IMG/VR virus record: IMGVR_UViG_3300008107_000010
Length of the DNA: 64,000 nucleotides
Reading direction: 5' to 3' (one strand)
DNA from: a virus
Lineage: Duplodnaviria > Heunggongvirae > Uroviricota > Caudoviricetes
The notes under the pieces were generated by a model. It was not told the DNA's origin. It saw nothing but the letters and a program-made list of their open reading frames with translations, and did no database searches. This document shows positions 5,157 through 58,433 of this stretch, one piece after another. The first letter of the stretch is position 1. Each line of letters starts with the position of its first letter. The translations under genes were made by a program, and so were the position numbers.

Positions 5157-5167
5157 CTTTATATATC
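5157..5167 (-). promoter_or_regulatory. late-type promoter-like motif (minus strand GATATATAAAG) upstream of the holin
   Basis: Plus-strand ctttatatatc is identical to the motif at 15476-15486 and similar to motifs upstream of capsid, sheath and tube genes. Confidence 0.4.
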
Positions 5168-5184
5168 ATTTTAATATAAAGGAA

Positions 5185-5208
5185 AAGGGACTCAGAAATG
5201 AGTCCCTT
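5185..5208 (-). terminator. intrinsic terminator hairpin (10-bp stem, GAAA loop)
   Basis: aagggactca-gaaa-tgagtccctt, followed on the minus strand by TTCCTTTATATT. Lies after the nuclease gene. Confidence 0.5.
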
Positions 5209-5231
5209 CTAAGATTAGTTGTAAAAATATT

Positions 5232-5849
5232 TTATCTGCAGTTACATTTAAATTTAGTGTAATCTGAATTTATTGGCTTGACATTTGGAAAGAAATAACA
5301 GTCAATAGTATTTCCATATTTAATAGTTTTATAGAATCCGGTTGGAATTGCAGCACCAGATGACAATCTAGTTATTTTCTTGAATTCAACTTGGATTGTA
5401 ACATATACATCATATCTTTTTGCTAGCTCACGTTCTTGAATTTCTAGCATCTTCCATGGACCACGATTTAGGCTTTGTTGTTGAAGTGCTGAATTAGCGT
5501 ATGAGAAAGTTGTACGTAGCATTGTTGTGTTACAGTTAAACGATGCAGCAGGGGCCATGTGACCTTTATCCCATTCGTTTGCAACATAATCAGCATTATC
5601 AGAAGTTTTAAGACCTGGTACCGTATAGAAATCCATACCCGATCTTGATGCAGTTCCAGTTGGACATAAAACTTTATATTCAACAGCTCTAGGTTGTTCT
5701 AACACCTCTGAATAGAGAATCTTAAAGTATTCATTTTGAACTACAACACTGTCTCGAAGAGTTTGTGACCACCCAGTGACAGCAGACAAGGTGATTAATA
5801 GAAATAATAATAATTTTTTCATTAGTCTGGTTTTATTTATTAGCTTCAA
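5232..5849 (-). CDS. secreted DNA/RNA non-specific endonuclease (Serratia NucA family)
   Basis: Signal peptide at the N-terminus. Active-site motif WDKGHMAPAA (the DRGH motif) plus a downstream NRGPW..LE motif. Confidence 0.7.
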   Translation of the reverse strand: MKLINKTRLMKKLLLFLLITLSAVTGWSQTLRDSVVVQNEYFKILYSEVLEQPRAVEYKVLCPTGTASRSGMDFYTVPGLKTSDNADYVANEWDKGHMAPAASFNCNTTMLRTTFSYANSALQQQSLNRGPWKMLEIQERELAKRYDVYVTIQVEFKKITRLSSGAAIPTGFYKTIKYGNTIDCYFFPNVKPINSDYTKFKCNCR

Positions 5850-6075
5850 TCAATATAGTAATACCAGCTGCTCCAGCCGATATCATATATTTATTGTATC
5901 TATTATCATTTAACCAGCCATATTTTTTAAACTCAAATATGATAGTATCTTTATCCTCAAACCAGACATGTATCGCATTTGTTGCATAATCTATTGATGG
6001 ATGTTTCATTAAACCCAATTTCCAACTTTCTCTATATTCTTCCTTTAATTCGTCGGGTGTTATATGAATAATCAT
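5833..6075 (-). CDS. hypothetical protein
   Basis: 80-aa ORF with no recognisable motifs. Confidence 0.3.
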   Translation of the reverse strand: MIIHITPDELKEEYRESWKLGLMKHPSIDYATNAIHVWFEDKDTIIFEFKKYGWLNDNRYNKYMISAGAAGITILIEANK

Positions 6076-6462
6076 TTACTTTTGATATTTTTCCTTGACT
6101 CTTTGGGAAATTGGAATTGCAGCTCCGTGGTCATCGATTCTAACAAATTTAATCTTAGTTGATAAAATTACAGTTTGTTCTCCAGAATAGACATTATGTG
6201 CTCTTGCCTCAAGATAGAGAGTTATTGAAGTGTTACCAATTTCAAATACTTCCCCATAAATTTTAAGTAGTTGACCTTCTCTTGCTGGTTTGGTAAAAAC
6301 ACATTCATCGATTTTGATTGTAACCATTCTAGGAGTATCGCATACTTCCATTGCAAGAGCAGCTCCAGCCGCATCAATCCATGCCATTAATTTTCCGCCA
6401 AAAAGATTAGCATGAAAACCAAGATCGGCTTTTTTAATTGGGTGTGTTGATATTAATTGCAT
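6076..6462 (-). CDS. acyl-CoA thioesterase, hotdog fold (YciA-like)
   Basis: HANLFGGKLMAWIDAAGA...VTIKIDECVFTKPAREGQLL matches the 4HBT/YciA pattern. Confidence 0.6.
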   Translation of the reverse strand: MQLISTHPIKKADLGFHANLFGGKLMAWIDAAGAALAMEVCDTPRMVTIKIDECVFTKPAREGQLLKIYGEVFEIGNTSITLYLEARAHNVYSGEQTVILSTKIKFVRIDDHGAAIPISQRVKEKYQK

Positions 6463-6731
6463 TATTCAGTCTCGTCAGAAATTATATTACCATATTGTTC
6501 AGCTGCCTTTGGATTTCGCTCTAGAAAAATTTGATATGCAACTTCATATCTTCCTAACTCCACTTCAAGTGGAAATATTTCGTAATTTAATGAATCTAAT
6601 TGATACTGTAGAGAATCGATCTTTTTCTTATCTGCAATTGATTGTTCTTTTAATTCAGATAGTGAAATACTTTGATATGATAGTATTCCAATGATAAAGA
6701 CGACAAGAACTGCAAGAAATCCATTTTTCAT
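6462..6731 (-). CDS. small membrane-anchored coiled-coil protein
   Basis: N-terminal TM segment followed by a heptad-like region. Confidence 0.35.
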   Translation of the reverse strand: MKNGFLAVLVVFIIGILSYQSISLSELKEQSIADKKKIDSLQYQLDSLNYEIFPLEVELGRYEVAYQIFLERNPKAAEQYGNIISDETE

Positions 6732-6743
6732 ATAGTATTTATT

Positions 6744-17369: not shown

Positions 17370-19283
17370 TTATAAACCATATCTATTTCTATTCGCATTG
17401 AAGTTTCGTAATACTTCATCATCTGAGAGTGCTTTTCTATAAACTCTAAATTGTGAAAAAGATCCTTTATATACGGCACTTCCTCCGCTATATGTACTTA
17501 ATCCAAATCCATTACTACCTCGGCCCATGCCACTATTATGAAAATCAAAGTTTGGATTACCATCGATATAAACTCCATTTCGGTATGTTCTTAAGGATCC
17601 ACTAGTACCTGTAGTATTTGTAAAAACCCATGTAAAAAGATTCCATGCATTATTTTCCCAATAGCCCATTCCGCCTGGATAATCTCCACTTGGACTTCCT
17701 GGAAAATAGTGTGAACCCATGCAACTATTATGACAATAAAACATAGGACCATAATTACCATTGGCTCCCATAGATAAAATTCCATAAGAACTTCCTTGGT
17801 CTAGTCCATTATGATAGAATGCCAATTCTAATGTAAAATCAGAATGTCCTCCAGGTAGAGTAGTATTTCCAATCCAGTCATCAACGCCATCGCAAATTAC
17901 TGATTTTACTCCTGCTGTTAACCCAAATCTAGCACCATTGTATAAATTAGCATGGTGACCACCTCCGCTTAAATCATACCATACCGCATTTTGCGATCTT
18001 GAGCCGGCAACAAATGGGGTTATTGAAGGTTGCTGTTCGATTTGAATATTAGCAACATCTATTTTCATATCTCCGGTAGATGGAAACCAATATGAAATAA
18101 GCACGTTATGCGTTGGAGTAAAAGTAAAACTGCATCTTACCCATTCTCCCTGTGCACCAGTATATGCATTCATATAGAATCCACTGGCTCCAGCAGGACC
18201 TTGATAATTGTAGTGTTGAAATGCAATATATTGACCAACCGCGCTAGGAGATGCAGCTCTTACCCAAAATGAAGTTGTAACTGGAACTCCAATAGTTACT
18301 GAAGCATCTACACCATAAGACATTCCATCCGTTGCATCTGATCTAAAAAAATGTAGACGAACACAATCAGTTACTGGATGTCCAGCTACATTAAATCCAC
18401 CTGATATAATCTCTTTAACTAAAGCTGAATTAGGCTGATGAGGATATCCCCACCATTTGGTTGGAAATCCAGAAGCATTAACAGAAACTCGTTGGTCTAA
18501 CCAAAATGAATCATGTACTTTAAATCTTCCGGTAGCTGGATTTAAATATCCTTGAGATCCATCTTGTGAACCATTATATTCATGTAAACTAAATTTAGTA
18601 TCTGAGATTTTTTTAGCTAAATATTGAGTACCGCCGGACAATCCTCCGCCTGATGATTGAGGATTAATCACATCAAAAGATCTAATTTGATGAGCGCTTA
18701 CGGTTGTAACTATATTATCAGATACCGATGCAATTGCAGGAATATCCCAATATACAGCACATCCATTATTTCCACAATATTGATTAGTATTATATGTACC
18801 CCATCCATTTCCAACTGTAGGATACGCGTTGATTGTTGGGTTCGGAATTAAGTTCGTGGTTGGTTTATTATCAACAAAACTAGAAACATGTTCAGCATCA
18901 AGATTTAATATTAATCCGTCTGTGACTATATTTTCAATTGAACTATTTAACACAGCAACACCAGATTGGTCTACTGCCCAATTTAACGCAGCGGTAGCAC
19001 TAGGTGAATTAGCGCCTAGAGCATTAAGTTTACCAAGTAGTTGTGTATCGTTTGCTGCGCGAAAAACTCCATCTGGTCCATATATTGTATATCCACCGGA
19101 CGGTATATCAGCACCGTTATAGAAACCGGTTACCGAACTTGGACCATCTCCTATATTATTTGGAGTTGTATCGATTGCCCAGTTACCTTTAAAAATAGAA
19201 TTAGGCTCTGATCCTGTCTTGTTTCTTTTAAATTTATTTGGCATTACAACCCGAATCTTTTCTTTTATATATTTTAAAAACAA
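17370..19283 (-). CDS. large protein with C-terminal concanavalin A/LamG-like domain (possible virion or host-recognition protein)
   Basis: C-terminus ...TYRNGVYIDG...FSQFRVYRKALSDDEVLRNF is typical of LamG/pentraxin jelly-roll domains. The G/S/N-rich body is beta-rich. The probable start is the internal Met at 19244. Confidence 0.45.
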   Translation of the reverse strand: MFLKYIKEKIRVVMPNKFKRNKTGSEPNSIFKGNWAIDTTPNNIGDGPSSVTGFYNGADIPSGGYTIYGPDGVFRAANDTQLLGKLNALGANSPSATAALNWAVDQSGVAVLNSSIENIVTDGLILNLDAEHVSSFVDNKPTTNLIPNPTINAYPTVGNGWGTYNTNQYCGNNGCAVYWDIPAIASVSDNIVTTVSAHQIRSFDVINPQSSGGGLSGGTQYLAKKISDTKFSLHEYNGSQDGSQGYLNPATGRFKVHDSFWLDQRVSVNASGFPTKWWGYPHQPNSALVKEIISGGFNVAGHPVTDCVRLHFFRSDATDGMSYGVDASVTIGVPVTTSFWVRAASPSAVGQYIAFQHYNYQGPAGASGFYMNAYTGAQGEWVRCSFTFTPTHNVLISYWFPSTGDMKIDVANIQIEQQPSITPFVAGSRSQNAVWYDLSGGGHHANLYNGARFGLTAGVKSVICDGVDDWIGNTTLPGGHSDFTLELAFYHNGLDQGSSYGILSMGANGNYGPMFYCHNSCMGSHYFPGSPSGDYPGGMGYWENNAWNLFTWVFTNTTGTSGSLRTYRNGVYIDGNPNFDFHNSGMGRGSNGFGLSTYSGGSAVYKGSFSQFRVYRKALSDDEVLRNFNANRNRYGL

Positions 19284-22077: not shown

Positions 22078-22102
22078 TGTTTTTGTATTTGTATTTTATA
22101 TA

Positions 22103-22582
22103 TTAGAAATTTGGATTTGTGATTCGGCAGTCGAAGTTTGTAAAACCTTCATACTGTTTTTCATCGGCTTCGATTCGACGTTCCCATGGATCATGTGTAT
22201 CTCCGCGTTGAGAAAGACGCTCAGCACGAACTTCGAATGGAATATCTAAATAGACAACCCAGCATCTTTTACGATATTCTTCAGATAACATTGCTAGACC
22301 TTCAACATTTAAAATCATAGCATCACAACGCTCAAATTCATCTTTGTGAATACCATAATAGAATCCTACAAACTCTTGCCATTCAACGAATTCATCATTA
22401 GCAATCATCTCCTTGAACTTTTCTACAGTGGTAAAATGATAATCAGATCCATCAACTTCTCCAACCCTAGGTGGTCGAGTAGTGTGAGAAACACCATATT
22501 TAAAACCTCTATCTATTAAAACTTTACGGAAATGGTCTTTGCCTGACGCAGCTTTACCAACTAATACGATCTTACTATCCAT
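22103..22582 (-). CDS. gmk: guanylate kinase
   Basis: P-loop GKAASGKD and the guanylate kinase signature SHTTRPPRVGEVDGSDYHF. Confidence 0.7.
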   Translation of the reverse strand: MDSKIVLVGKAASGKDHFRKVLIDRGFKYGVSHTTRPPRVGEVDGSDYHFTTVEKFKEMIANDEFVEWQEFVGFYYGIHKDEFERCDAMILNVEGLAMLSEEYRKRCWVVYLDIPFEVRAERLSQRGDTHDPWERRIEADEKQYEGFTNFDCRITNPNF

Positions 22583-26524: not shown

Positions 26525-26545
26525 GTTATTAACATAGTTATTAAC
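26525..26545. promoter_or_regulatory. two tandem GTTATTAAC palindromes overlapping the stop of the CCA-enzyme gene
   Basis: aaaaaagttattaacatagttattaac. Confidence 0.35.
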
Positions 26546-35679: not shown

Positions 35680-35690
35680 ACTATATATCC
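35680..35690 (-). promoter_or_regulatory. late-type motif (minus GGATATATAGT) upstream of the tape measure gene
   Basis: Plus-strand actatatatcc. Confidence 0.3.
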
Positions 35691-37125: not shown

Positions 37126-37164
37126 AGTATTTTAATAACATATTATATATTCATTGCAAAAAGA

Positions 37165-37186
37165 AGGGATGACTCTCGCCATCCCT
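37165..37186 (-). terminator. terminator hairpin after the tube gene
   Basis: agggatg-actctcgc-catccct, followed on the minus strand by TCTTTTTGC. Confidence 0.4.
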
Positions 37187-37770: not shown

Positions 37771-37780
37771 TTTATATATC
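37771..37780 (-). promoter_or_regulatory. late-type motif (minus AGATATATAA) upstream of the tube gene
   Basis: Plus-strand ttatatatct. Confidence 0.35.
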
Positions 37781-40381: not shown

Positions 40382-40390
40382 CTATATATC
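40382..40390 (-). promoter_or_regulatory. late-type motif (minus AGATATATAG) upstream of the sheath gene
   Basis: Plus-strand ctatatatct. Confidence 0.35.
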
Positions 40391-44881: not shown

Positions 44882-44910
44882 TTAATGAGAATTATTTTCT
44901 TTATATATTC

Positions 44911-48265: not shown

Positions 48266-48330
48266 GTTTTGCACTTTATTTCTAAATTTATATGACAGAA
48301 TGTCGTTTAGTTTCAAAAATAAATAACTAT

Positions 48331-48840: not shown

Positions 48841-50144
48841 CCTAGTAAAACTCTCATCCTATCAGCAACTGACATGCTGAATTTAGATTCATTTAATTTT
48901 GATTCATTCTGAAGTTTCTTAAGTTCCATTTCATAAATTCTACCTAATTCAGTTCCTTCTAATTGCCAAGATTCATTCTTAGAAATTTTATCAATTTTAG
49001 CTTGGATATTCTTAACTTTTTCTTCATCACCAGCATTTTTAGCATCTTCTAATTGTTTCTTAAAACCTTTTAGTAATTCTGCCTTCTTATTTTCTTTATT
49101 ATCTCCAGTTTCTGCTGGTTTTTCAGATTTAACATCGTTTAATGCTTGTTGGAATTCACCAACTTTACCCTGTGCAGTTGAAATAGCTTTATCATCTTTT
49201 TTCAATTTAGCAATTTGTAAATCTATTTGAGCCATGCTTAAATTATTTTGAGCCTCTCCTGCCTTATCTTCTGGAGCAATTTTCTTTGCTTTTAATTCTC
49301 CTTTTTTAATATTTAGCTTTTCGATTTCTGCTTTAGCACCTTCTTCTTTAGCTTTTTTATCAGTTTCTTCTTTAGCTTTTCTATCAGTTTCAGCTTTAGC
49401 ATCGTTATCTTTCTTTGCTTGTGCTGCAGCATCTTCTTTAGCTTTTTTATCGGCTTCGGCTTTAGCAGCTTTAGCTTCATCAGATAAATCTTTAATAGCA
49501 TCTTGCTCTTCAGCATATCTTTTCTGTAATTCTCCCATTGATGATGCTAAATCTTTCTTTTTCTTTGGATCGTCTTCCATGCCACTAGATCTTTTAACTA
49601 GTTCCATTCTACCTTTAATCTTTTCAGATTTAATTACTTTCTGAACATAAGATCCTCTATCTTTTGCCTTGTCATCAACAGCCGTTTGTAGATCAGATAT
49701 TTGACTGTCAATAGTTTTCTTTTTAGCAAGAATTGCATCTTTTTTAGGCTTGTCTGCGCCAGATCCAAGATTATCAGCAGCAATCTGCATATCTAGAGCA
49801 TTCATTTTCATTTTGTTGATTTTCTTTTGCATATTACGATATTTTGGTGCAAAAAGAAAATCTTTAATTTTATCCATTGCTGTTTCTTCTCCAGCTTCAT
49901 TAAGAACTGAATCGCCAATAGATTCTAATTCTTCTTTTACTTGTGATGCTAACTGCGATAAGTTAGTCATGATAGTGTCAATATCACTAATAATTTCTTC
50001 TCTTGAAAAGTTTCCAGTTGAAGGAATTGCAGCAGTATCGACTGTTGGTGCGTCGGTATTATCAGTGGTTGTTGCAACCGGTTCGGGAGTATTAACCGCC
50101 TCGAGAATGTTTGAATACCAAGAATTGAAGTTTAATTTTTTCAT
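48837..50144 (-). CDS. Lys/Glu/Ala-rich coiled-coil protein (scaffold or head-associated?)
   Basis: 435 aa with a long KAKEDAAAQAKKDNDAKAETDRKAKEE-type low-complexity helix, between the capsid and replication genes. Confidence 0.4.
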   Translation of the reverse strand: MKKLNFNSWYSNILEAVNTPEPVATTTDNTDAPTVDTAAIPSTGNFSREEIISDIDTIMTNLSQLASQVKEELESIGDSVLNEAGEETAMDKIKDFLFAPKYRNMQKKINKMKMNALDMQIAADNLGSGADKPKKDAILAKKKTIDSQISDLQTAVDDKAKDRGSYVQKVIKSEKIKGRMELVKRSSGMEDDPKKKKDLASSMGELQKRYAEEQDAIKDLSDEAKAAKAEADKKAKEDAAAQAKKDNDAKAETDRKAKEETDKKAKEEGAKAEIEKLNIKKGELKAKKIAPEDKAGEAQNNLSMAQIDLQIAKLKKDDKAISTAQGKVGEFQQALNDVKSEKPAETGDNKENKKAELLKGFKKQLEDAKNAGDEEKVKNIQAKIDKISKNESWQLEGTELGRIYEMELKKLQNESKLNESKFSMSVADRMRVLLG

Positions 50145-50169: not shown

Positions 50170-50183
50170 TTTATATATTTACA
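50170..50183 (-). promoter_or_regulatory. late-type motif (minus GTAAATATATAAAC)
   Basis: Upstream of 48837..50144. Confidence 0.3.
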
Positions 50184-50198
50184 TTTCTAGGTAAAAAA

Positions 50199-50229
50199 GA
50201 AAAGGCTCTCCATTTGGAGAGCCTTTCTT
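50199..50229 (-). terminator. intrinsic terminator after the capsid gene
   Basis: aaaaggctctcc-attt-ggagagccttt, followed on the minus strand by TCTTTTTTACC. Confidence 0.55.
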
Positions 50230-50269: not shown

Positions 50270-51751
50270 TTATGCTAAGTTTAATAGGTTAGCAAATGCA
50301 GAACCGTCTGCTTTAGTAACACTGAACTTAACGTATTGAGTTTCAGGGTGGAAACCAGCTTCAACTAGAGCGAATCTAGATTTAACCGCAATTTTAGGAG
50401 CCATAGTTCCTTCAGCGATAGTTTGTACTGATTCAGCCATTAAGTAAGGCATGAAAACTAATCCAGGACCATTACCATCACCTTTTCTACCTACTAATAC
50501 GTGATTGTAGTTCCAAGCCCATTTAGGGTTAGTGTAAACTTGTACACCAGCTACTGAACCTACTGGGTAGATTGCACCTGCAGCTTGAGATACTGTATTA
50601 GCAAATGGATTTGGTACGAAACCAGCAACAGCTTGAAGAACTGTAGCAACTTGAGGACCTACAACTGCAAAGTTACCTGCACCTCTACGACCACGGTTAG
50701 CGATCAAGTTAGCAGCAGCTAAAATACCAGTTAAGATTTTTCTGTGCTCAGAACCTTCAGTTTGACCACCTGTGAAAGATGCAGCTGCAACTAATTTTAC
50801 GTTTAATGCACCTGAAGCGAATTCACCAGCAGCAACCGCTCTAGTTAAGTTAGTAGTACCTAAAGTAGCGATGTTATTGATGATTAAGTCGTTGATGTTT
50901 TGAGTTAACTCGTTAACAAGTACTGCTTCAACTTGAGCAACAGCGTCAACGCCGAATTGCTTAAGATCTTGTACCTGCTCTCTTGTTACTGCAGCAGCAA
51001 CTTGGAAAGTCTTAGCTTCAACAGCTTTGCTGAATAAAGATAGACCCATGATTTTTTCGTTAGTTTGCTCACCAACACCTCTTGTGAAAGGATCACCGTT
51101 AGCGTCTCCAGAGAAGCTAGGGATGTGATCTTCTAAAGCTTTTACTAATTCTACAGTTACTGAACCAGAAGTTACAGTAAATAGATCAGCAACAGTTCCA
51201 GCAGTTGAAGTTACGAAAGCTTCACCAGCATCATTGATTTTGTAGATGTTTTTACCATCGATACGAGATGTACCAATTAAAACAGCTCCAACTTGAGTAC
51301 CTGCAGTACCTGAATCAATATCAGCTAAAGCAAGACCTGTACCAGATGCTTTAACAATTGTAGGAGTAGTTGTACCAGCTAACTTACCACCTTCGTAAAC
51401 GAAGTCTAAGTAAGATAATAGACCCATAGGACCAGCCATAGGAATAACAGGTACTAAGTCTAAACCGATAGTTTGAGCAGCTACTTGCATTGCTAAAGGT
51501 AACAATGTAGGAGCTTTATCACCAGAACCTTTTGCAACACCATCAACGGCACCAGGAAGTGCAACAGCACCCATACCGAAAATGTTACCTGCAGAACCAA
51601 GTGACATCATATTTGCGTCTTCGTACAACTTGTGGTTGTGGCAGTACTCAGACATCCAAGCTAGTTTAGAAGCATCATTGATACCAGTAGCAGATTCGAT
51701 GATCGGCGACCATGTCTCTCTGATTTCAGCTTCATTAATTAAATTTGCCAT
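50270..51751 (-). CDS. major capsid protein (T4 gp23 family)
   Basis: GNFAVVGPQVATVLQA aligns with T4 gp23 GNFIIASRNVVNVLAS. 493 aa. Confidence 0.8.
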   Translation of the reverse strand: MANLINEAEIRETWSPIIESATGINDASKLAWMSEYCHNHKLYEDANMMSLGSAGNIFGMGAVALPGAVDGVAKGSGDKAPTLLPLAMQVAAQTIGLDLVPVIPMAGPMGLLSYLDFVYEGGKLAGTTTPTIVKASGTGLALADIDSGTAGTQVGAVLIGTSRIDGKNIYKINDAGEAFVTSTAGTVADLFTVTSGSVTVELVKALEDHIPSFSGDANGDPFTRGVGEQTNEKIMGLSLFSKAVEAKTFQVAAAVTREQVQDLKQFGVDAVAQVEAVLVNELTQNINDLIINNIATLGTTNLTRAVAAGEFASGALNVKLVAAASFTGGQTEGSEHRKILTGILAAANLIANRGRRGAGNFAVVGPQVATVLQAVAGFVPNPFANTVSQAAGAIYPVGSVAGVQVYTNPKWAWNYNHVLVGRKGDGNGPGLVFMPYLMAESVQTIAEGTMAPKIAVKSRFALVEAGFHPETQYVKFSVTKADGSAFANLLNLA

Positions 51752-51834
51752 TTTTTAAATGAATTTATTTTTGTGTTTTAGCGTTATGCTCGACATGCTT
51801 AGATTTTTGCTTCTTATCTAATATCGTCGATTGT

Positions 51835-51844
51835 TTTATATATT
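51835..51844 (-). promoter_or_regulatory. late-type motif ATATATAAAACAAT (minus) upstream of the capsid gene
   Basis: Plus-strand attgttttatatat, an identical 14-mer to 55944-55957. Confidence 0.4.
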
Positions 51845-51880: not shown

Positions 51881-53869
51881 TTACTTTTTGAATCTTTTTG
51901 CAAATTCTTCTTTCATACCATCTACGTTGTATGGTAATTTAGAAACTTTTTCTTCAGCTTTAGCAGATTCATTAACTACTTCAATTTTTTCCATTACTGG
52001 AGCAGTTTCTCTTAAATCTCTTGTTTGCCAGAAGTTTCTTACTTGATATTCAGTTTCTAATTTATGATATTTAGACTGGGCAAGTAATTGATTCTTTTTG
52101 CTTTCAGATAATTTATTCCATGTTTCTCTGTATTCAGCAGGCATAGCTTTGATTACCATTGGTTCGTTTTCAACTGGAGCTCCAGCTACTGCATTATTCC
52201 ATAATGCATAGATTTGAGATTCAGTTAAGAAACCTTTACCTTCAACAGCTTTGGTAATTTTTGCTTTTGCTTCATCAGTTAAAGCATTGAATTCTTCAAC
52301 TTTTGATTCAGAAATAAATTTAAAGAAGTTTGGAGTTGTTGCAGGTTTTGCAGTTGCTTTTTCAACTAAAATTTGTAATTTCTCAGTGATTGCTTTCTTA
52401 TAAGCATCCATTCTATCAACTTCTTCAGTTACTTCTTTACCAATATTTTCGCCTTCTGCTTCAGAATCTTTAATATCTTTTTCTAATTCTTTAGAATCAT
52501 CTTCAGCTCTGTCTTCAGCTTTAGCATATTTAGTGCCTTCGCCATCTACAACTGGAGGTGTAGTATCTTTTAATTCTGTAGATTTAAGATCTTCAGCGTG
52601 TGTGCCAGTTTCGCCAGCAGCTTCGGTTACTTCTTTACCAATGTTTTCACCTTCTGCTTCAGAATCTTTAAGATCTTTTTCTAATTCTTTAGCTGTATCT
52701 TCGATAGCATCTTCACCAGTTGGTTGTTTTTTGCCATCAAATTCTACTTTTGGAGTTTTGTCATCAGACATTTTCTTAATTTTTTCAGCAGGTAAACCAG
52801 CTTCTTCTCCATCAGCTTCAACTAATAAGTTTTTATTTACTGATTCAGCAATATATTCAGCATACTCAGTTACTTTTTCTAAACTTTCTTTTAAATAAGT
52901 AACATACTTAAGCATATTATCATGAGATGTTGCACCTTCGTTAAATGCCTCAGCTAAATAGTTTGAGTATTCTTTTACTTGGTTTACTGATTCACCAATT
53001 TTTTCACTGTATTGAATAGATTGGTCTAATTTTTCAGCAACATGATCTCCGTGTTGAATAGACTCGTCTACTTTTTCAGCTAAATAATTGTTATATTCAA
53101 TTACTGAATTCATTTTTTCAGCTAAGTATGATGAATATTCTTTAAGATTTTCAACTTCTTTAGCAAAAGTACCTTCGTTCTTTTCCTTAAGTGATTCTTT
53201 AATACCCTTCATCTCTTCTGCTAAGTACTTAGAATATTTGTTAAAATCTTCTGTACTTACAAATCTAGATTGTTCCATTTTGTTTTCTTCTATGGTTTGT
53301 GTTTGGTTGTCTTCTGTACTATTTATCTCATAAATTAGAATATCGCCTTCATCTTCAAAACCAAAAGCCTCATTTACTCTTTTTAATTCAGCATTAGCAA
53401 ATCCAGGATCTGCAACTAAATCGTATGTAAATAATTGTTTGATTTTTACTTTTCCGTCTGATTCAACGACACCAGCTGCTCTAGATGAGATATGAAGAGG
53501 TACTCCAGCATCAACTAATGCTTTTGCTTGTTTACCAGCATCAGTATCAAGTAGCCTAATTCTACCCATTACTTTTTTGCTTTCTTTGTCATAAGTTAAT
53601 TCTTCAATAACGTGTGATACGTTTTTAAGAGAAATATCAAATGCTTGAGGGTGATCAAGTTCACCAAGTAATTTTGATGAACCTATTTTAGCCTGTAGAG
53701 CTTCGATTTGAGGAAGGTATTCGCTTTCAGTATAGATTCTGTTATTTCTATTCTTAACACCAATCTCACCAAAACAGCCTTCTAGTACATAAGCACCAGA
53801 ATCCTCTTGGTTGAAGGTCAACGTACTATTTGACCTTTCTAGAATAAGTAGTTTACTTTGTGGAGTCAT
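51881..53869 (-). CDS. prohead protease fused to scaffold-like repeat domain (T4 gp21/gp22-like)
   Basis: The N-terminal ~200 aa have a prohead-protease-like profile (GELDHP, HISSRAAG). The C-terminal 450 aa are acidic with repeated YSxYLAEKx and KELEKDIKDSEAEGENIGKEVTE units. Track start at 53881 is GTG. The ATG is at 53869. Confidence 0.55.
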   Translation of the reverse strand: MTPQSKLLILERSNSTLTFNQEDSGAYVLEGCFGEIGVKNRNNRIYTESEYLPQIEALQAKIGSSKLLGELDHPQAFDISLKNVSHVIEELTYDKESKKVMGRIRLLDTDAGKQAKALVDAGVPLHISSRAAGVVESDGKVKIKQLFTYDLVADPGFANAELKRVNEAFGFEDEGDILIYEINSTEDNQTQTIEENKMEQSRFVSTEDFNKYSKYLAEEMKGIKESLKEKNEGTFAKEVENLKEYSSYLAEKMNSVIEYNNYLAEKVDESIQHGDHVAEKLDQSIQYSEKIGESVNQVKEYSNYLAEAFNEGATSHDNMLKYVTYLKESLEKVTEYAEYIAESVNKNLLVEADGEEAGLPAEKIKKMSDDKTPKVEFDGKKQPTGEDAIEDTAKELEKDLKDSEAEGENIGKEVTEAAGETGTHAEDLKSTELKDTTPPVVDGEGTKYAKAEDRAEDDSKELEKDIKDSEAEGENIGKEVTEEVDRMDAYKKAITEKLQILVEKATAKPATTPNFFKFISESKVEEFNALTDEAKAKITKAVEGKGFLTESQIYALWNNAVAGAPVENEPMVIKAMPAEYRETWNKLSESKKNQLLAQSKYHKLETEYQVRNFWQTRDLRETAPVMEKIEVVNESAKAEEKVSKLPYNVDGMKEEFAKRFKK

Positions 53870-53890
53870 ATTTATAGACACTATGTTTCT

Positions 53891-53900
53891 TTATATATCT
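53891..53900 (-). promoter_or_regulatory. late-type motif (minus AGATATATAA) upstream of the protease-scaffold gene
   Basis: Plus-strand ttatatatct. Confidence 0.35.
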
Positions 53901-54313: not shown

Positions 54314-55927
54314 TTAGAATCCCATTCCTCCGCCACCGCCCATTGCAGCCATTGGATCTGCTGGTGGTTCTTCGGCTTTTTCAGCATCTTTTCTAGCTTT
54401 ATACGCTTCGTTAGCTGCTTTATCGTCTGGGGAAAGTTTTAAGTATCTGTCAACCAAGAATTCTAAGTCAAAGTAATGTTCTTCTTCCATTGTCATTGGG
54501 TTAGCAATCATCAGGTCTTGGTTCATTTTAGAGATAAAGTCTAATCTCTTTTCCATTATTTCCATTTCTTTTAACTCAGCAAACATGTTCTCTTCATTGT
54601 ATCTCAATGCAATTTGAGTTTTGAATCCAGGATCATCAGAAAATTCTGGATATTTTAAACACATTTGTAAGTATAGTGGTTTTACAAGTATTTCTTGGAA
54701 TGAGCTTCTTAAACGATTAATAAATTTAGAGAATTTAATCTCATCACGAATCATACCATCTGCTGCCAAGTTAAAGTCTCCTCCTCCATCTTCATACATA
54801 AATCTATTAAATGGAATTTTAGAAACTTGTTTTAACTTATCAGAGAAATATTTAAGAGCTTCAGTGTCTGATAATTCTGGTCCATCTCCACCTAAAGTTT
54901 CAATTTCTGGTTGTTCACCATCTTTAGAAGGTAACCAATATTCTTTATTAAATTGAAGCATTGGTTTACCATTAGTTTTCAGCATACCTGAATCCCAATC
55001 GAAATCAACAACTTCTTTATAGTTATTCATTAATTGTGCTAACGATTGTTTAGCACGTGTTTTAGATTTACCTCCAACTGGAATAATGAATTTCATTCTA
55101 TATGAGGCATTGGTAACAGCCCAAATAACTCTGGTGTGTTCCATAACTCTTAATAAGTTAAAAGCTCTAATTAATCTTTCAACATAAGAAACTCTAGAAG
55201 CTGTGGTAATTGAAGAATAAGAAATATAGATAATCTGCGCATCATATAATTTTCTTTCTTTGATTGGATCGTCTTTAAACTGGATCCAAACTTTTTTACC
55301 ATCTTCTTTATTATATGCTGGAACTAATGTAATAGGATCGATTTCTTTAAAACCGATAATCTCAGATTGTTCAGGGTTATAGATAATTTCAAATGCAAGA
55401 TAACCATCAACTAACCATTTGCGGAAATAGAACCACGCAGATTGATCTTGTGCAAAGCCAAAATATTGATAAATTTGACGGAATGCTTTATTTAGATAAT
55501 TATTAACTTCCTCTGAAATCTCCATTCCAATAATTGATGGATTTGCAATAAAGTTTTTCTCATCATAAACAACCGCTTCATCACAAAGAATATCTAAAAT
55601 ATCTTCAATTTCATCGTACATTGAGAATTGACGTAATTCATCTCTCTTTGTTTTATAATTCATGTCAAAGAACGGAATGTTCTTTCTCATGTTTGTATCT
55701 GCCATTGATAAAGCTGCAAATGCTCCATAAATGTCGTCATTATCGATACCCATCACATTCATTTGGCCGTAACCAAATTGATCTTCTGCTGGACCAATTG
55801 CTTGAGATTGTCGTAGTACTAAATCATCATAGTACATACCAAAAGAAGATAACCTTTTTAATCCGTCACTTAGATTAAAAGGTCTTCTGGCACTAAAGGG
55901 TCCATTTTTATTTACAAATCCAGCCAT
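54314..55927 (-). CDS. portal protein
   Basis: 537 aa (T4 gp20 is similar in size). Lies immediately upstream of the prohead core, protease and capsid genes. Gly-rich C-terminal tail. Confidence 0.55.
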   Translation of the reverse strand: MAGFVNKNGPFSARRPFNLSDGLKRLSSFGMYYDDLVLRQSQAIGPAEDQFGYGQMNVMGIDNDDIYGAFAALSMADTNMRKNIPFFDMNYKTKRDELRQFSMYDEIEDILDILCDEAVVYDEKNFIANPSIIGMEISEEVNNYLNKAFRQIYQYFGFAQDQSAWFYFRKWLVDGYLAFEIIYNPEQSEIIGFKEIDPITLVPAYNKEDGKKVWIQFKDDPIKERKLYDAQIIYISYSSITTASRVSYVERLIRAFNLLRVMEHTRVIWAVTNASYRMKFIIPVGGKSKTRAKQSLAQLMNNYKEVVDFDWDSGMLKTNGKPMLQFNKEYWLPSKDGEQPEIETLGGDGPELSDTEALKYFSDKLKQVSKIPFNRFMYEDGGGDFNLAADGMIRDEIKFSKFINRLRSSFQEILVKPLYLQMCLKYPEFSDDPGFKTQIALRYNEENMFAELKEMEIMEKRLDFISKMNQDLMIANPMTMEEEHYFDLEFLVDRYLKLSPDDKAANEAYKARKDAEKAEEPPADPMAAMGGGGGMGF

Positions 55928-55943: not shown

Positions 55944-55957
55944 ATTGTTTTATATAT
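55944..55957 (-). promoter_or_regulatory. late-type motif ATATATAAAACAAT upstream of the portal gene
   Basis: Identical 14-mer to the capsid-upstream site. Confidence 0.4.
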
Positions 55958-56661
55958 TAAGATTTTTTCTTGTTGTCTTTCATTTTAGCCGGTTTCTCTT
56001 TCGGTTTAGCTTTTGCAATTGCCTCTTCTATTCTTTTTCGCTTCTCTTCATTTCTAAAATTAGCATTATATTCTTGAAATTCTTTTCTGATTTCACCAAC
56101 AGTAGAACCATGTATCTTTGCAAATTCACATATTGCAATTTTACCCCAACTCTCATAACTTACAACAGCTTGATTTTTCTTAAGATTTGGTAAATATCTT
56201 CTAACAGCAAAACCAAACCCATAACGATCTAAAAATCTTTTAGCATTTTCATATTTAAGATCGAGAAGTGGTCTTTGTTTTCTAGCATCGGATGCATTTG
56301 TTCCTTTTGTTGCGTTTTTAATTTTAGATTTCATTGTTTCATAAATCGCATCAAGCAATGCTTGTCTAAATTTAGCAGGTAGAAGGTTTAAATTAATACC
56401 AATATCGGTATGGTCTTTAGTATCTAATGCTAAAACTACTGGGGCTTTATCCCACCATTTTAATTTTTCTTCAGTAATTGGATTCTCGTATTTAAAAACA
56501 TAAATTTTACCAGGCTCAAAACGCTTTCTAGTTGGCTTTGCCTCTAACGCCTCTCTAGCTGTAAGAGAATCTCGAAACCAGTTAGTAGCTATACTTTTTG
56601 CTTTAGCATATCCACCACTGTCTCTAAACATGTCTCTAATCTGATCCTTAATGTAACCCAT
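55957..56661 (-). CDS. hypothetical protein
   Basis: 234 aa with a basic C-terminus. Confidence 0.35.
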   Translation of the reverse strand: MGYIKDQIRDMFRDSGGYAKAKSIATNWFRDSLTAREALEAKPTRKRFEPGKIYVFKYENPITEEKLKWWDKAPVVLALDTKDHTDIGINLNLLPAKFRQALLDAIYETMKSKIKNATKGTNASDARKQRPLLDLKYENAKRFLDRYGFGFAVRRYLPNLKKNQAVVSYESWGKIAICEFAKIHGSTVGEIRKEFQEYNANFRNEEKRKRIEEAIAKAKPKEKPAKMKDNKKKS

Positions 56662-57133
56662 TTATTGTCTTTTCGGTTAATATTTGAAAGTTCCAATTTC
56701 TTCCAGCACAATAGGTTTTGGCTGCGATATATTTATCAAGATTTTTTGTATATTGCTCGACTAAAAATTTATAGCTGTCGAGAGATTTCTTTGAATTCTT
56801 TTTTGGAGGTTCTGGCTTCCTAAGTTGATCTTCCGGTTTTATTTCAATTAATAACTCTTTAACCGTTCCATCGTTTTGTAATACTTTTAAATAAAAATCT
56901 GGGCTATATGTATGCTCTCGTCCATCTAATCTCCAGAAATATTTTATTTGAATTGGTTCGCTAGACCAATAAATTACTTGCTGATTCCTGTCGCACCACA
57001 TCATAAATTTCCGTTCCCAGCTAGAACGGAAAATGATAGGCATTGGTCCAACATATTTTTCTCTATTTTGAGGAGTAAAATATCCTTGAACGAATCCTGA
57101 TTTTTTAGTAGGTTTTACATTCTTTATTGACAT
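56648..57133 (-). CDS. hypothetical protein with PD-(D/E)xK-like motif
   Basis: YSPDFYL...VKELLIEIKP. Confidence 0.3.
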   Translation of the reverse strand: MSIKNVKPTKKSGFVQGYFTPQNREKYVGPMPIIFRSSWERKFMMWCDRNQQVIYWSSEPIQIKYFWRLDGREHTYSPDFYLKVLQNDGTVKELLIEIKPEDQLRKPEPPKKNSKKSLDSYKFLVEQYTKNLDKYIAAKTYCAGRNWNFQILTEKTINGLH

Positions 57134-57525
57134 TAAATGCTATAGATACCACCACCTTCTTCTGAATCTCCATTTGAAGTTCTATCTAAGGAAATTGTAC
57201 CTTTGTATTTTACCGGATGAATTTTATTCCAACCTTTGGCGTATCCACGTTTTGCAATTTCCGTAAAGTATGCAAATGCGTTAGTATACTGAGGATTGAA
57301 ATTTTTCCAATATTTTAATAAGTCTAAAATTGCAAATTGTAAACAATCCATTCGATCGTCATCATTAACAAATCTCAATTTATTAATTGCCTTTTCTGCT
57401 AATAGAATTAGCATTTTTTCGGCATCTTTAGTTAATTTATCCTGCTCTTTCGATTCGACAATCGCAGCATAGAAATCTCTATTATTGAGATAATTTTTAT
57501 TTGCTCTTGGTTTTCTTTCAGCCAC
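57133..57525 (-). CDS. late-transcription sigma factor (T4 gp55-like)
   Basis: [25 protein letters not shown] resembles T4 gp55 [33 protein letters not shown] resembles KNPHAYITQ. GTG start. Lies next to the gp47 and gp46 homologues as in T4. Confidence 0.65.
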   Translation of the reverse strand: [130 protein letters not shown]

Positions 57526-57580
57526 GTTATTTAATTATTTTTAGGTATTATACACCGGGTAGTAAAATTGTTTCTAAAAC

Positions 57581-57612
57581 TAAGAAAGGGGCGCAATAGC
57601 GTCCCTTTCCCC
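57581..57612 (-). terminator. terminator hairpin (8-bp stem with one G-U pair, aata loop)
   Basis: aggggcgc-aata-gcgtccct. Confidence 0.35.
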
Positions 57613-57631
57613 AAATAAATCTATATAAATC

Positions 57632-58396
57632 TTATGCTTTTAATTCAGCAATCTTAGATTCCCATACTTTAATTTCTTCACTGATTAATTTATCAGCTTC
57701 TTTAATTTCTGAAATCTTTTTATCAGCTTCTGCTAATAATTCTCTTTGTTCTTTTAAGAATACGATCATTGATTCGCATTCTAAAATTTCTTTTGCTTTA
57801 GTAGCTAATTCAACTGATTCTCCTTCTAATAAATCTACTAAGAAATTACTAGCATCGTGTCCAGTTTGTTCTTTAACGTATTCAACAGCAGAAACGGCAT
57901 TTTCAGCCTTAAAGAATTTTGCAATTCTTGTATTTTCATTAATTCTAGCAACAAAAATGCCAGATTCAGTTTTCATTAAATCTACTTTATTACCATTACC
58001 TTCATAACAAGATACGAAATCTAACATAATGAAAGATTCTAAAATAACTGGTAATTTTTCAAAAAGTTCTGCAGTTATTTTGTGTTCATATCTAACAGCT
58101 CCTGCTGCAATTAAGTGTTTTGCAACTGATTCACCTAGGATTTCACTGCTTCCCCAAGTAAATTTGTTTTCAGTAATATTATATGAAAATCTTGATGCAC
58201 CATAGTACCATTTAACATTTTCATTTGTGAAACTGAAAGTTTGGATTGCTCTAATTTTTTCTACAAAATCAGCTGATAGTTTATTAACCTCTAGCTCATT
58301 AATTTCTGAACCGATCATTTCAAACACTCTTCCATTTAAATAGAACTGGATTGAGTTTTCTGTTTGATTGATTGGAGATAGAATGCCTTTATTCAT
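57632..58396 (-). CDS. hypothetical protein
   Basis: 254 aa with a C-terminal coiled coil. Late-type motif at 58421-58430. Confidence 0.35.
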   Translation of the reverse strand: MNKGILSPINQTENSIQFYLNGRVFEMIGSEINELEVNKLSADFVEKIRAIQTFSFTNENVKWYYGASRFSYNITENKFTWGSSEILGESVAKHLIAAGAVRYEHKITAELFEKLPVILESFIMLDFVSCYEGNGNKVDLMKTESGIFVARINENTRIAKFFKAENAVSAVEYVKEQTGHDASNFLVDLLEGESVELATKAKEILECESMIVFLKEQRELLAEADKKISEIKEADKLISEEIKVWESKIAELKA

Positions 58397-58433
58397 TTTA
58401 GCTCTTGTTTTTTTCTTTTATTATATATCTATT

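What the first reader, a model, noticed from the sequence alone, without database searches (positions are those of the whole stretch)
5157..58430. Late-type promoter-like motif (minus strand AGATATATAAAG or ATATATAAAACAAT) upstream of structural and lysis genes, matching an encoded gp55-like sigma
Plus-strand (c/t)tttatatat(c/t) occurs 10-40 nt upstream of the following genes:
- Holin (5157).
- Candidate ncRNA (15476).
- Tape measure (35680).
- Tube (37771).
- Sheath (40382).
- The 650-aa structural gene (44899).
- The coiled-coil gene (50170).
- Protease-scaffold (53891).
- Portal (55944).
- The 254-aa gene (58421).

It also occurs 84 nt upstream of the capsid gene (51835). The portal and capsid copies share an identical 14-mer attgttttatatat. 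The motif is a permutation of the T4 late promoter TATAAATA, and the window encodes a clear gp55 homologue (57133-57525). This is a coherent late regulon that includes lysis genes and the ncRNA.
Basis: partly seen in the sequence, partly recalled or inferred. Interest (0 to 1): 0.6.

Follow-up and report, generated by a model that had tools for sequence, protein, structure and literature searches.

The report
Variant T4-type late promoter, RATATATA
An uncultured marine jumbo phage related to T4 marks its virion, lysis and one non-coding RNA gene with a short box, RATATATA. This box is a one-letter variant of the classic T4 late promoter and is most likely read by the phage's own small gp55-like sigma factor. 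It is a solid but unsurprising regulatory signal.

Summary
The motif is real and far above chance. On the gene (minus) strand the 8-mer RATATATA occurs 15 times, always outside coding sequence, and never on the other strand. The strictly intergenic count is 11 against 1.5 expected, and the coding count is 0 against 7.7 expected.

- **Anatomy:** there is no -35-like element. An A sits at the 5th base downstream in 14 of 15 sites.
- **Targets:** the box precedes portal, protease, capsid, sheath, tube, tail and other virion genes, a holin-like/endolysin pair and a ~345-nt structured ncRNA. It is absent upstream of replication, nucleotide and RNA-repair genes, which carry other promoter-like motifs.
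- **Conservation:** the box is kept at orthologous sites while flanks diverge. Over 706 kb of relatives, GATATATA is 216 non-coding / 13 coding / 0 opposite strand.
- **Register:** upstream of the homologous ncRNA, a more distant clade carries canonical TATAAATA in the same position. The box is therefore TATAAATA with R at -13 and T at -9.
- **Sigma:** ORF 57133-57525 is a gp55 homologue (PHROG 1.2e-11; best fold match is T4 gp55, 7d7c_F).

It is a new consensus variant of a known kind. Timing, start sites and which sigma reads the box remain inferred. No gp33 or gp45 was found in the window.

The parts
59331..59338 (-). AATATATA box, 6 nt before the ATG of the gp15-like tail sheath stabiliser gene (58434-59324)
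   Evidence: Kept in L004, L006, L007 and L008 as AATATATA-GAAC-ATG or GATATATA-GTGT-ATG. Gene identity: Pfam T4-gp15_tss 2.2e-9.
58422..58429 (-). GATATATA box, 25 nt before the 254-aa gene (57632-58396)
   Evidence: Kept in L004-L008.
55951..55958 (-). AATATATA box, 23 nt before the portal gene (54314-55927)
   Evidence: Pfam Portal_T4 2.3e-72. Kept in L004-L008 and before the portal genes of LR756500, LR745206 and LR756502.
53892..53899 (-). GATATATA box before the prohead protease/scaffold gene (51881-53881 as GTG ORF; likely ATG at 53867)
   Evidence: phrog_207 2.2e-41. Kept in L004-L008 and L012-L014.
51837..51844 (-). AATATATA box, 85 nt before the major capsid gene (50270-51751); the leader holds a conserved hairpin (51790-51830)
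   Evidence: 71 of 80 IMG/VR relatives have RATATATA 82-116 nt upstream of the capsid ATG.
50172..50179 (-). AATATATA box, 27 nt before the 435-aa gene (48837-50144), just after a hairpin plus T-run (50193-50223)
   Evidence: Kept in L006, L007, L008 and L012-L014.
44902..44909 (-). AATATATA box, 20 nt before the 650-aa gene (42929-44881), which is followed by a 224-aa gene and the large terminase gene
   Evidence: Kept in L012-L014.
40383..40390 (-). GATATATA box, 28 nt before the tail sheath gene (37787-40354)
   Evidence: phrog_34521 2.3e-126. Kept in L012-L014 with diverged flanks and an A at the 5th downstream base in all four.
37773..37780 (-). GATATATA box, 19 nt before the tail tube gene (37199-37753)
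   Evidence: Kept in L012 and L013, degenerate in L014.
37144..37151 (-). AATATATA box, 18 nt before a 72-aa gene (36907-37125), after a hairpin plus T-run (37158-37185)
Evidence: Kept in L012-L014.
35682..35689 (-). GATATATA box, 24 nt before the 972-aa gene (32739-35657, TTG start; candidate tape measure)
   Evidence: Kept in L012-L014. The tape-measure identity is not established; there is only a weak phrog_788 'tail protein' hit, 8.3e-5.
22097..22104 (-). AATATATA box, 19 nt before a 188-aa gene (21511-22077)
Evidence: A box at the matching distance upstream of the 637-aa gene orthologue is present in L219-L221 and L231.
19266..19273 (-). AATATATA box, about 27 nt before the ATG (19238) of a 622-aa virion structural protein gene (17370-19238)
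Evidence: phrog_8510 4.7e-10. Kept in L220, L231 and L243 with diverged flanks.
15480..15487 (-). GATATATA box overlapping the stop codon of the Ro/TROVE-like gene, at the 5' end of the ncRNA
   Evidence: Kept in L096-L109 and L134. Replaced by TATAAATA at the same spacing in L112-L120.
15125..15475 (-). Candidate ~345-nt structured ncRNA, running from the A at the 5th base after the box to a hairpin plus T-run (15133-15159); a member of the regulon
   Evidence: RNAalifold gives 41 pairs, 12 with compensatory changes, in 10 sequences. No Rfam family.
5160..5167 (-). GATATATA box, 47 nt before a 98-aa holin-like gene (4816-5112) and the endolysin gene (3974-4795), after a hairpin plus T-run (5178-5206)
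   Evidence: The 98-aa product has two hydrophobic segments and a charged tail. Endolysin: phrog_181 1.7e-69.
57133..57525 (-). gp55-like minimal late sigma gene (130 aa)
   Evidence: phrog_234 'late sigma transcription factor' 1.2e-11. tblastn to annotated late sigma genes of cyanophages, Melnitz phages and XacN1, E 3e-8 to 1e-3. AF2 model's best PDB match is 7d7c_F, T4 gp55 (E 3.9e-3, prob 1.00, TM 0.64). Y97 and T99 equivalents conserved.
57546..57612 (-). Hairpin plus T-run (57582-57612) and a GGTGTATAATA extended -10-like box (57546-57556) upstream of the gp55-like gene; this is not a RATATATA site
   Evidence: The same arrangement is seen in L004, L006 and L007.

Best explanation
RATATATA is the -10-like element of this phage's late promoters.

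**Proposed mechanism.** Host RNA polymerase core carrying the phage's 130-aa gp55-like sigma opens DNA at this 8-mer without any -35 contact. Transcription starts 5-6 nt downstream, usually at an A. This drives the virion genes, the holin-like/endolysin pair and a structured ncRNA. The gp55-like gene sits behind a sigma70-like promoter, so it would be made earlier and switch the late class on.

**Shown.**
- The motif, its strand and position specificity, and its depletion from coding DNA.
- The lack of a -35 element.
- Its conservation at orthologous sites.
- Its positional equivalence to TATAAATA.
- The gp55 homology.

**Inferred.**
- That it is a promoter, that gp55 reads it, where transcription starts, and that the timing is late.
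- Any coupling to a sliding clamp or gp33.
For: 1. **Counts in the window.** There are 15 copies on the gene strand, all non-coding, and 0 on the other strand. The strictly intergenic count is 11 against 1.5 expected, and the coding count is 0 against 7.7 expected.
2. **Anatomy.** Information content is confined to R-ATATATA plus an A at the 5th downstream base (14/15 in the window, 44/49 unique sites in the close clade). Nothing is conserved at -35.
3. **Terminator then box.** Three sites lie directly after a hairpin plus T-run, as expected for new initiation.
4. **Downstream genes.** These are gp15-like, portal, protease, capsid, sheath, tube, a virion protein, holin-like/endolysin and the ncRNA. 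The helicase, SbcCD, clamp loader, exonuclease, thymidylate synthase and RNA ligase genes have no box and carry other motifs.
5. **Footprints.** The box is kept at orthologous sites in L004-L008 and L012-L014 while flanks diverge.
6. **Clade-wide counts.** Over 706 kb, GATATATA is 216 non-coding / 13 coding / 0 opposite strand and AATATATA is 78 / 15 / 8, with 11% of the DNA non-coding.
7. **Capsid genes.** 71 of 80 capsid genes have the box 82-116 nt upstream.
8. **Natural swap.** The homologous ncRNA is preceded by GATATATA here and by TATAAATA in L112-L120. Both lie 17-18 nt from a conserved CAGCAA, 22 nt in two of the GATATATA loci.
9. **Start position.** In LR745206 and LR756502 many boxes lie exactly 4-5 nt before an ATG. 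This places the start at the 5th-6th base, as for T4, where the box spans -13..-6 (PMC1524935).
10. **Sigma.** gp55 homology is shown. In T4 gp55 the pocket residues for A-12 (Y97) and A-8 (T99) are described in PMC7892883. Both are conserved here, matching the invariant A at those positions.
Against: - There are no RNA data, so start sites and timing are untested.
- A second phage sigma (ECF-like, 19725-20345) is encoded in the window.
- No gp33 or gp45 homologue was found in the window. The 227-aa candidate at 44911-45594 is not a clamp.
- The gp55-like protein lacks the helix-loop-helix part of T4 gp55, and its C-terminus (GIYSI) does not resemble the T4 clamp-binding motif.
- The -9 A-to-T switch has no residue-level explanation. 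H95 is F here, but also in a cyanophage gp55.
- Canonical TATAAATA is also enriched in spacers of the clade (43 non-coding / 23 coding), so the recognised set may be broader.
- The gp15 site is only 6 nt from its ATG.
Confidence: 0.78

Rival explanations
1. The box is a promoter element but is read by another sigma. Candidates are the phage's ECF-like sigma (19725-20345) or the host primary sigma helped by a phage factor. On this view the gp55-like protein does something else or reads another motif, for example canonical TATAAATA.
For: - An ECF-like sigma with regions 2 and 4 is encoded (Pfam Sigma70_r2 1.4e-10, r4_2 1.2e-6).
- TATAAATA is also spacer-enriched in the clade. In the window it sits exactly 6 nt before the tRNA-Ser 5' end.
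Against: - Sigmas with region 4 use a -35 element, and none is conserved at the 15 sites or the 49 clade sites.
- The bipartite ~45-nt motif with 8 copies is a better candidate for a region-4 sigma.
- The box is equivalent in position to TATAAATA at the ncRNA.
- The A-12 and A-8 pocket residues of gp55 are conserved.
Confidence: 0.12
2. The box acts at the RNA level, as a processing site or a translation or stability signal in the 5' region of mRNAs, rather than as a promoter.
For: It is strand-specific and lies close to start codons, and these genes have no obvious Shine-Dalgarno sequences.
Against: - It precedes a non-coding RNA.
- It lies 82-116 nt from the capsid ATG but 4-30 nt from other start codons.
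- It often follows a terminator, where no upstream transcript would carry it.
- It is interchangeable with the T4 late promoter 8-mer.
Confidence: 0.05
3. The box is a by-product of AT-rich spacer composition.
For: Spacers are 73% A+T.
Against: - Dinucleotide shuffles of the spacers give 1.5 copies against 11 observed.
- There are no copies on the opposite strand of the same spacers and none in coding DNA, where 7.7 are expected.
- The box is conserved while flanks diverge.
- Only T at position 5 with R at position 1 is enriched.
Confidence: 0.01

Closest known systems
Bacteriophage T4 late promoters (TATAAATA at -13..-6), read by gp55 with gp33 and the gp45 sliding clamp
   Same: - An 8-bp A/T box with no -35 element, lying upstream of virion genes.
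- An encoded gp55 homologue with the sigma region 2 fold and the Y97 and T99 pocket residues.
- The same register relative to a homologous transcript.
- 6 of 8 positions identical, including A-12 and A-8, which gp55 flips into pockets (PMC7892883).
   Different: - T instead of A at -9, and R instead of T at -13.
- The conserved A is 5 rather than 6 nt after the box.
- The sigma is 130 aa, without the T4 helix-loop-helix motif and with an unrelated C-terminus.
- No gp33 or gp45 was found in the 64-kb window. A clamp loader is present.
Variant late-promoter consensuses predicted in other gp55-encoding phages: Aeh1 CTAAATA, RB49/KVP40/S-PM2 with variable -13 (PMC1524935), CBB and GAP32 ATAAATA (PMC5259590)
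   Same: The principle is the same: each clade of T4-related phages has its own version of the box, found upstream of structural genes by sequence analysis. Position -13 is known to be loose.
   Different: All those variants keep the AAATA core. This clade changes the core at -9, giving ATATA.
Group 2.2 jumbo phages with a 'minimal sigma' (Iyer et al. 2021, PMC7824862), including Lak megaphages and the uncultured huge phages LR756500, LR745206 and LR756502
   Same: - The closest portal and gp55 relatives of the window.
- RATATATA is also spacer-enriched on the gene strand in the three LR genomes I sampled.
   Different: - That paper catalogues the sigma factors and gives no promoter motif.
- In the LR genomes the box is less strand-exclusive and often lies 4-5 nt from the ATG.
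- Tenacibaculum phage PTm1, another relative, shows ATACATA-type boxes instead.
Bacterial sigma70 -10 element (TATAAT) and extended -10 promoters
   Same: An A/T-rich hexamer-like core about 10 bp upstream of the start.
   Different: - No -35 or TG extension, and a different invariant pattern.
- The window has separate sigma70-like promoters (TTGAAA-N17-18-TATAAT, GGTGTATAAT) before early-type genes.

Membership tests
T4-type late promoter | Short A/T-rich -10-like box with no conserved -35 element | tested here: met
   Information content is limited to R-ATATATA-N4-A in 15 window sites and 49 clade sites.
T4-type late promoter | Consensus TATAAATA | tested here: not met
   The consensus is RATATATA: 6 of 8 positions identical, with T at -9 and R at -13. 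Canonical TATAAATA occurs at only 3 spacer sites in the window.
T4-type late promoter | Found 5' of virion and lysis genes and not 5' of early or replication genes | tested here: met
   Gene identities. No box lies before the helicase, SbcCD, clamp loader, exonuclease, ThyX, RNA ligase or sigma genes.
T4-type late promoter | Box at -13..-6, with the start about 6 nt downstream | tested here: inconclusive
   No RNA data. Indirect evidence: an A at the 5th base in 90% of sites, an ATG at 4-5 nt in relatives, and the same spacing as TATAAATA to the homologous ncRNA.
T4-type late promoter | Active late and dependent on gp55 | not testable with these tools
   Needs time-resolved RNA data or in vitro transcription.
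gp55 late sigma family | Sequence homology to gp55 | tested here: met
   phrog_234 1.2e-11. tblastn to annotated late sigma genes, E 3e-8 to 1e-3. T4 gp55 is the top PDB sequence hit of the family profile, but only at E 0.36. No Pfam hit.
gp55 late sigma family | Sigma region 2-like fold | tested here: met
   AF2 model with pLDDT 77. Foldseek's best PDB hit is 7d7c_F, T4 gp55 (E 3.9e-3, prob 1.00, TM 0.64/0.61), followed by sigmaE region 2.
gp55 late sigma family | Base-pocket residues of T4 gp55 (N13, H95, Y97, T99; PMC7892883) | tested here: inconclusive
   N13, Y97 and T99 equivalents are conserved (N15, Y86, T88). H95 is F84, as it also is in a cyanophage gp55. The alignment is weak outside this segment.
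gp55 late sigma family | Helix-loop-helix motif (H4-H5) after region 2 | tested here: not met
   The protein ends about 25 residues after the region 2 domain. There is no counterpart of T4 residues ~105-153.
gp55 late sigma family | C-terminal sliding-clamp-binding motif on a variable linker | tested here: inconclusive
   A variable acidic/Gly linker is followed by a conserved hydrophobic end, GIYSI. The DNA polymerase of relatives ends in NLIYSTSLF. There is no sequence likeness to T4 SLDFLYEAND, and binding is untested.
T4 late transcription system (gp55 + gp33 + gp45) | gp33 co-activator encoded | tested here: inconclusive
   No PHROG or Pfam hit among the window's small ORFs. The window is only part of a genome of more than 200 kb.
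T4 late transcription system (gp55 + gp33 + gp45) | gp45 sliding clamp encoded | tested here: inconclusive
   A clamp loader is present (47315-48337, phrog_168 7.9e-75). The 227-aa neighbour is not a clamp by fold. The rest of the genome was not seen.

The most novel reading that the evidence does not exclude
This widespread, uncultured marine jumbo-phage clade uses a stripped-down gp55 that has region 2 only, with no helix-loop-helix. Its base preference at -9 has switched from A to T. Transcription starts 5 nt after the box, so in the megaphage relatives many late mRNAs would be leaderless. The late regulon includes a structured ncRNA partner of a Ro/TROVE-like protein. This would give a natural sigma-promoter specificity pair and a late-expressed viral RNP.
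Probability: 0.3. Interest if true: 0.55.

Novelty: new variant of a known kind. Interest (0 to 1): 0.4.

Why it matters
- **Annotation:** the box gives a simple, highly specific marker of the late gene class for a large uncultured group. I found 575 capsid-bearing contigs in IMG/VR and more than 600 gp55-like protein clusters. Hypothetical genes, lysis genes and a ncRNA can therefore be assigned to a temporal class from sequence alone.
- **Specificity test:** T4 uses TATAAATA and this clade uses RATATATA, and the same ncRNA is driven by either box in different clades. This offers a clean natural test of how gp55-type sigmas read position -9.
- **Limits:** it does not change the picture of T4-type late transcription.

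Tried and rejected
- **Close relatives in GenBank phages:** megablast of 8.5 kb found nothing. Relatives had to be found by protein.
- **Sliding clamp:** I took the 227-aa gene next to the clamp-loader cluster (44911-45594) for a possible gp45. Its confident AF2 model has no clamp-like or any other PDB match.
- **gp33:** searched among the small ORFs with PHROGs at E up to 5; nothing found.
- **Rfam on the ncRNA gap:** only terminator-like sub-threshold hits.
- **Residue explanation for -9:** I tried to explain the A-to-T switch by H95 becoming F. This was rejected because cyanophage S-SSM7 gp55 also has F.
- **Endolysin relatives:** used to test the holin-site promoter. The 80 loci are a mixed bag of phages and only 7 share the holin-like gene, so the test is uninformative.
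- **RNAalifold on the capsid leader:** it found only the outer stem, because the alignment register differs between subgroups. Single-sequence folds show the inner stem.
- **Tenacibaculum phage PTm1:** it does not share the box, so the motif is not general to all relatives of this gp55.

Full report
**What the window is.** All but one gene lie on the minus strand, and G+C is about 33%. The gene content is that of a distant T4-like myovirus.
- **Replication genes:** DnaB-like helicase, SbcD/SbcC and a clamp loader.
- **Virion genes:** a gp15-like tail protein, gp4-like and gp2-like proteins, a T4-type portal, prohead protease, a gp23-type capsid, large terminase, sheath and tube.
- **Relatives:** no close relative is in the GenBank phage set. 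By protein, the nearest are uncultured huge phages: LR756500 (portal 58% identical), then LR745206 and LR756502.
- **More distant relatives:** Sphingomonas phage PAU, the Prevotella Lak megaphages and Tenacibaculum phage PTm1.
- **Metagenomic relatives:** the gp55-like protein has more than 600 clusters of relatives in metagenomes, many of them marine, on contigs up to 238 kb. A protein of the window is found 100% identical on a 208-kb contig.

**Observation.**
- Seven of the 11 listed sites fit it, and four are variants.
- The unit that never varies is minus-strand RATATATA, with 15 copies on the gene strand and none on the other.
- All 15 lie outside coding sequence once two start codons are corrected. 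The 637-aa ORF starts at ATG 19238, and the protease gene probably starts at ATG 53867.

**Chance.** Non-coding DNA is 7% of the window.
- Dinucleotide-preserving shuffles of the spacers give 1.54 +/- 1.17 copies (maximum 7 in 1000) against 11 strictly intergenic copies. The other four overlap a stop codon or an ORF edge.
- Coding DNA holds none on either strand, although 7.65 +/- 2.8 are expected in the sense strand. The opposite strand of the spacers holds none.
- An unbiased 8-mer ranking puts ATATATAA first (p 9e-11).
- The box is therefore both enriched where genes begin and avoided elsewhere, as expected of a signal that would be harmful if it fired inside genes.

**Anatomy.**
- Aligned on the box, the sites show information only at R, ATATATA, a mild A preference in the next three bases, and an A at the 5th base after the box. 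That A is present in 14 of 15 window sites and 44 of 49 unique sites in the close clade.
- Nothing is conserved around -35.
- Three sites (50172, 37144, 5160) follow directly on a G+C-rich hairpin with a T-run, the layout of terminator then promoter.

**Which genes carry the box.**
- Downstream genes are the gp15-like gene, a 254-aa gene, portal, protease/scaffold, capsid and a 435-aa gene. Then come a 650-aa gene (followed by a 224-aa gene and terminase), sheath and tube.
- The rest are a 72-aa gene, a 972-aa tail-region gene, a 188-aa gene, a virion structural protein, a holin-like 98-aa gene followed by the endolysin, and a non-coding stretch.
- No box precedes the replication, nucleotide-metabolism or RNA-repair genes.
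- Those genes carry two other promoter-like classes. One is sigma70-like boxes (TTGAAA-N17-18-TATAAT, GGTGTATAATA) before the gp55-like gene, the Ro-like gene and, in the relatives L012-L014, the clamp loader. The other is a ~45-nt bipartite motif with 8 copies.

**Conservation in the close clade.**
- In syntenic relatives found through the gp55-like protein (L004-L008; 89% and 76% identity), the box stands at the orthologous sites while the flanks change.
- The same holds in relatives found through a neighbouring 227-aa protein (L012-L014; 57, 65 and 43% identity).
- For the sheath gene the four genomes read GATATATA followed by GAAT-A, CTAT-A, CATA-A and GTTT-A.
- Over 80 IMG/VR loci around the capsid gene (539 kb), the gene strand holds 266 boxes, 245 of them non-coding, against 8 on the other strand. 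71 of 80 capsid genes have a box 82-116 nt upstream.

**Specificity and spread.**
- Over all 706 kb of the clade, GATATATA is 216 non-coding / 13 coding / 0 opposite strand and AATATATA is 78 / 15 / 8.
- Changing position 5 to A, C or G, or position 1 to C or T, removes the effect. The exception is TATAAATA itself, at 43 / 23 / 58.
- The three huge-phage genomes also show spacer enrichment on the gene strand (9/13, 12/16 and 17/23 copies non-coding), including before their portal genes.
- PTm1 does not share the box. It shows ATACATA-type boxes instead.

**Register relative to T4.**
- The Ro/TROVE-like gene (15487-16926; Pfam DUF2828 + DUF7788) is followed by a conserved RNA in many phages.
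- In this clade the RNA is preceded by GATATATA. In a more distant clade (L112-L120; protein 52-54% identical) it is preceded by canonical TATAAATA.
- In both, the 8-mer ends 17-18 nt (22 nt in two of the GATATATA loci) before a conserved CAGCAA.
- The two 8-mers therefore occupy the same place. RATATATA equals TATAAATA with changes at -13, a position already known to be loose (PMC1524935), and at -9.
- In T4 the box spans -13..-6 (PMC1524935).
- In the LR genomes nine boxes lie exactly 4-5 nt before the ATG of a long ORF. In L004 and L007 the gp15 gene reads box-N4-ATG. This puts the start at the 5th-6th base and suggests leaderless late mRNAs in those relatives.

**The sigma.**
- ORF 57133-57525 hits PHROG 234, 'late sigma transcription factor' (1.2e-11), and annotated late sigma genes of cyanophages and other phages by tblastn.
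- A family profile ranks T4 gp55 first in the PDB, though weakly (E 0.36).
- An AF2 model (pLDDT 77) matches T4 gp55 in the open complex best (7d7c_F; E 3.9e-3, prob 1.00, TM 0.64), followed by sigmaE region 2.
- In T4, gp55 flips A-12, A-9 and A-8 into pockets lined by Y97, by N13 and H95, and by T99 respectively (PMC7892883). Y97, T99 and N13 are conserved here, and A-12 and A-8 are invariant in the box. H95 is F, but it is also F in a cyanophage gp55, so the -9 switch is unexplained.
- The protein lacks the T4 helix-loop-helix segment.
- It ends in a variable acidic/Gly linker and a conserved GIYSI. The DNA polymerase of relatives ends in NLIYSTSLF. A shared clamp-binding tail is possible but unproven.
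- No gp33 or gp45 was found in the window, and the 227-aa candidate is not a clamp.

**Mechanism and rivals.**
- **Best account (0.78):** a T4-type late promoter read by core RNAP plus the gp55-like sigma.
- **Main rival (0.12):** another sigma reads the box. An ECF-like sigma is encoded (19725-20345), but such sigmas need a -35 element, which is absent. The bipartite 45-nt motif suits a region-4 sigma better.
- **RNA-level signal (0.05):** this fits poorly with a box before a ncRNA, after terminators, and at 4 to 116 nt from start codons.
- **Composition:** excluded.

**Comparison and novelty.**
- Variant late-promoter consensuses in gp55-encoding phages are known: Aeh1 CTAAATA (PMC1524935) and CBB/GAP32 ATAAATA (PMC5259590). 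All keep the AAATA core.
- The jumbo-phage survey that describes the 'minimal sigma' of this group gives no promoter (PMC7824862). My literature searches found no description of this box.
- This is a new variant of a known kind.

**Caveats.** All evidence is comparative. Only 64 kb of a genome of more than 200 kb was seen. Gene calls in the relatives are partly my own simple ORF calls. The holin site could not be tested in relatives.

Noticed in passing
window, minus strand; plus coordinates of the TATTTACA core: 47265, 27570, 26467, 24870, 20374, 15078, 13284, 11760: A second, long promoter-like motif with 8 copies, roughly AAAAAGTTTTaCCGTTTgag-N-TTGTTTATATTTACATATCA, often preceded by GTTAATAACTTTTTTGAAAA. 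It precedes the 5'-3' exonuclease gene, several small ORFs, the ECF-like sigma gene and an Rnl1-like gene. It is kept in relatives (L013, L014, L099, L109). It may be an early or middle promoter class. Its TATATTTA core resembles the Bacteroidetes TAnnTTTG box.
   Followed up: partly
window 19725-20345 (-): A second phage sigma: a 206-aa ECF-like protein (Pfam Sigma70_r2 1.4e-10, Sigma70_r4_2 1.2e-6; phrog_1740). With the gp55-like protein this suggests a multi-step sigma cascade.
   Followed up: no
window 15125-15475 (-), next to 15487-16926 (-): A ~345-nt structured RNA directly after a Ro/TROVE-like gene (DUF2828 + DUF7788/vWA; phrog_850 3.4e-161). RNAalifold on 10 relatives gives 41 pairs, 12 with compensatory changes. 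It matches no Rfam family. In some relatives a small ORF is inserted between the box and the RNA. It is a candidate Y-RNA-like partner.
   Followed up: partly
window 51790-51830 (-), in the 5' leader of the capsid gene: A conserved two-stem hairpin: outer stem UCGAC/GUCGA, an inner 5-6 bp stem with at least 6 compensatory variants, and a conserved loop AAGAAGCA(A/G)AA. All 29 distinct versions from 80 relatives fold the same way. Its function is unknown; it may be a binding site for a translational or stability regulator.
   Followed up: partly
window 32704-32711 (-), 42906 (-), 53869 (-): Canonical TATAAATA occurs at three spacer sites on the gene strand. One lies exactly 6 nt before the 5' end of tRNA-Ser(tga) (32608-32697). 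At the 224-aa gene, relatives carry GATATATA, GATACATA or GATAAATA at the same place, so position -9 may be partly tolerant.
   Followed up: partly
window 8942-13044, 26541-27281, 32608-32697 (-): An RNA repair and tRNA set: Rnl2-like ligase (9484-10497), Rnl1-like ligase (10658-11758), polynucleotide kinase-like ATPase (11980-12393), phosphoesterase (12400-13044), CCA-adding enzyme (26541-27281) and one tRNA-Ser.
   Followed up: no
L002 (LR745206) and L003 (LR756502), e.g. L003 2047, 5656, 10633, 18589, 37965: In these huge phages the box often lies exactly 4-5 nt before the ATG of a long ORF, which suggests leaderless mRNAs.
   Followed up: partly
L011 (Tenacibaculum phage PTm1 195240-224680): Upstream of the portal, capsid and other genes PTm1 shows ATACATA(T/A)A boxes instead of RATATATA. 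It also shows Bacteroidetes-type TATATTTG boxes elsewhere. Its gp55 homologue has TS where T4 and the window protein have NN (N12, N13).
   Followed up: partly
window 48292-48840 (+): The only plus-strand gene of the window (182 aa, no family hit). It is conserved as an opposite-strand gene of 168-174 aa between the 435-aa gene and the clamp loader in all relatives seen.
   Followed up: no
window 36907-37125 (-): A 72-aa protein under a late-type box in the tail module. By eye it looks like a ribbon-helix-helix DNA-binding protein (…MSVSAFIRELIRKEI…). It is conserved in L012-L014.
   Followed up: no
window 44911-45594 (-): A 227-aa protein conserved in the clade, with a confident AF2 model (pLDDT 80, pTM 0.74) and no PDB fold match. 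Its function is unknown.
   Followed up: partly
window 57133-57525 (-); L004 507-1703; L007 101-1297: The gp55-like protein ends in GIYSI and the DNA polymerase of relatives ends in NLIYSTSLF. The helicase ends in NIHSL/I and a 146-aa acidic protein ends in INRLF. These may be shared clamp-binding tails.
   Followed up: no
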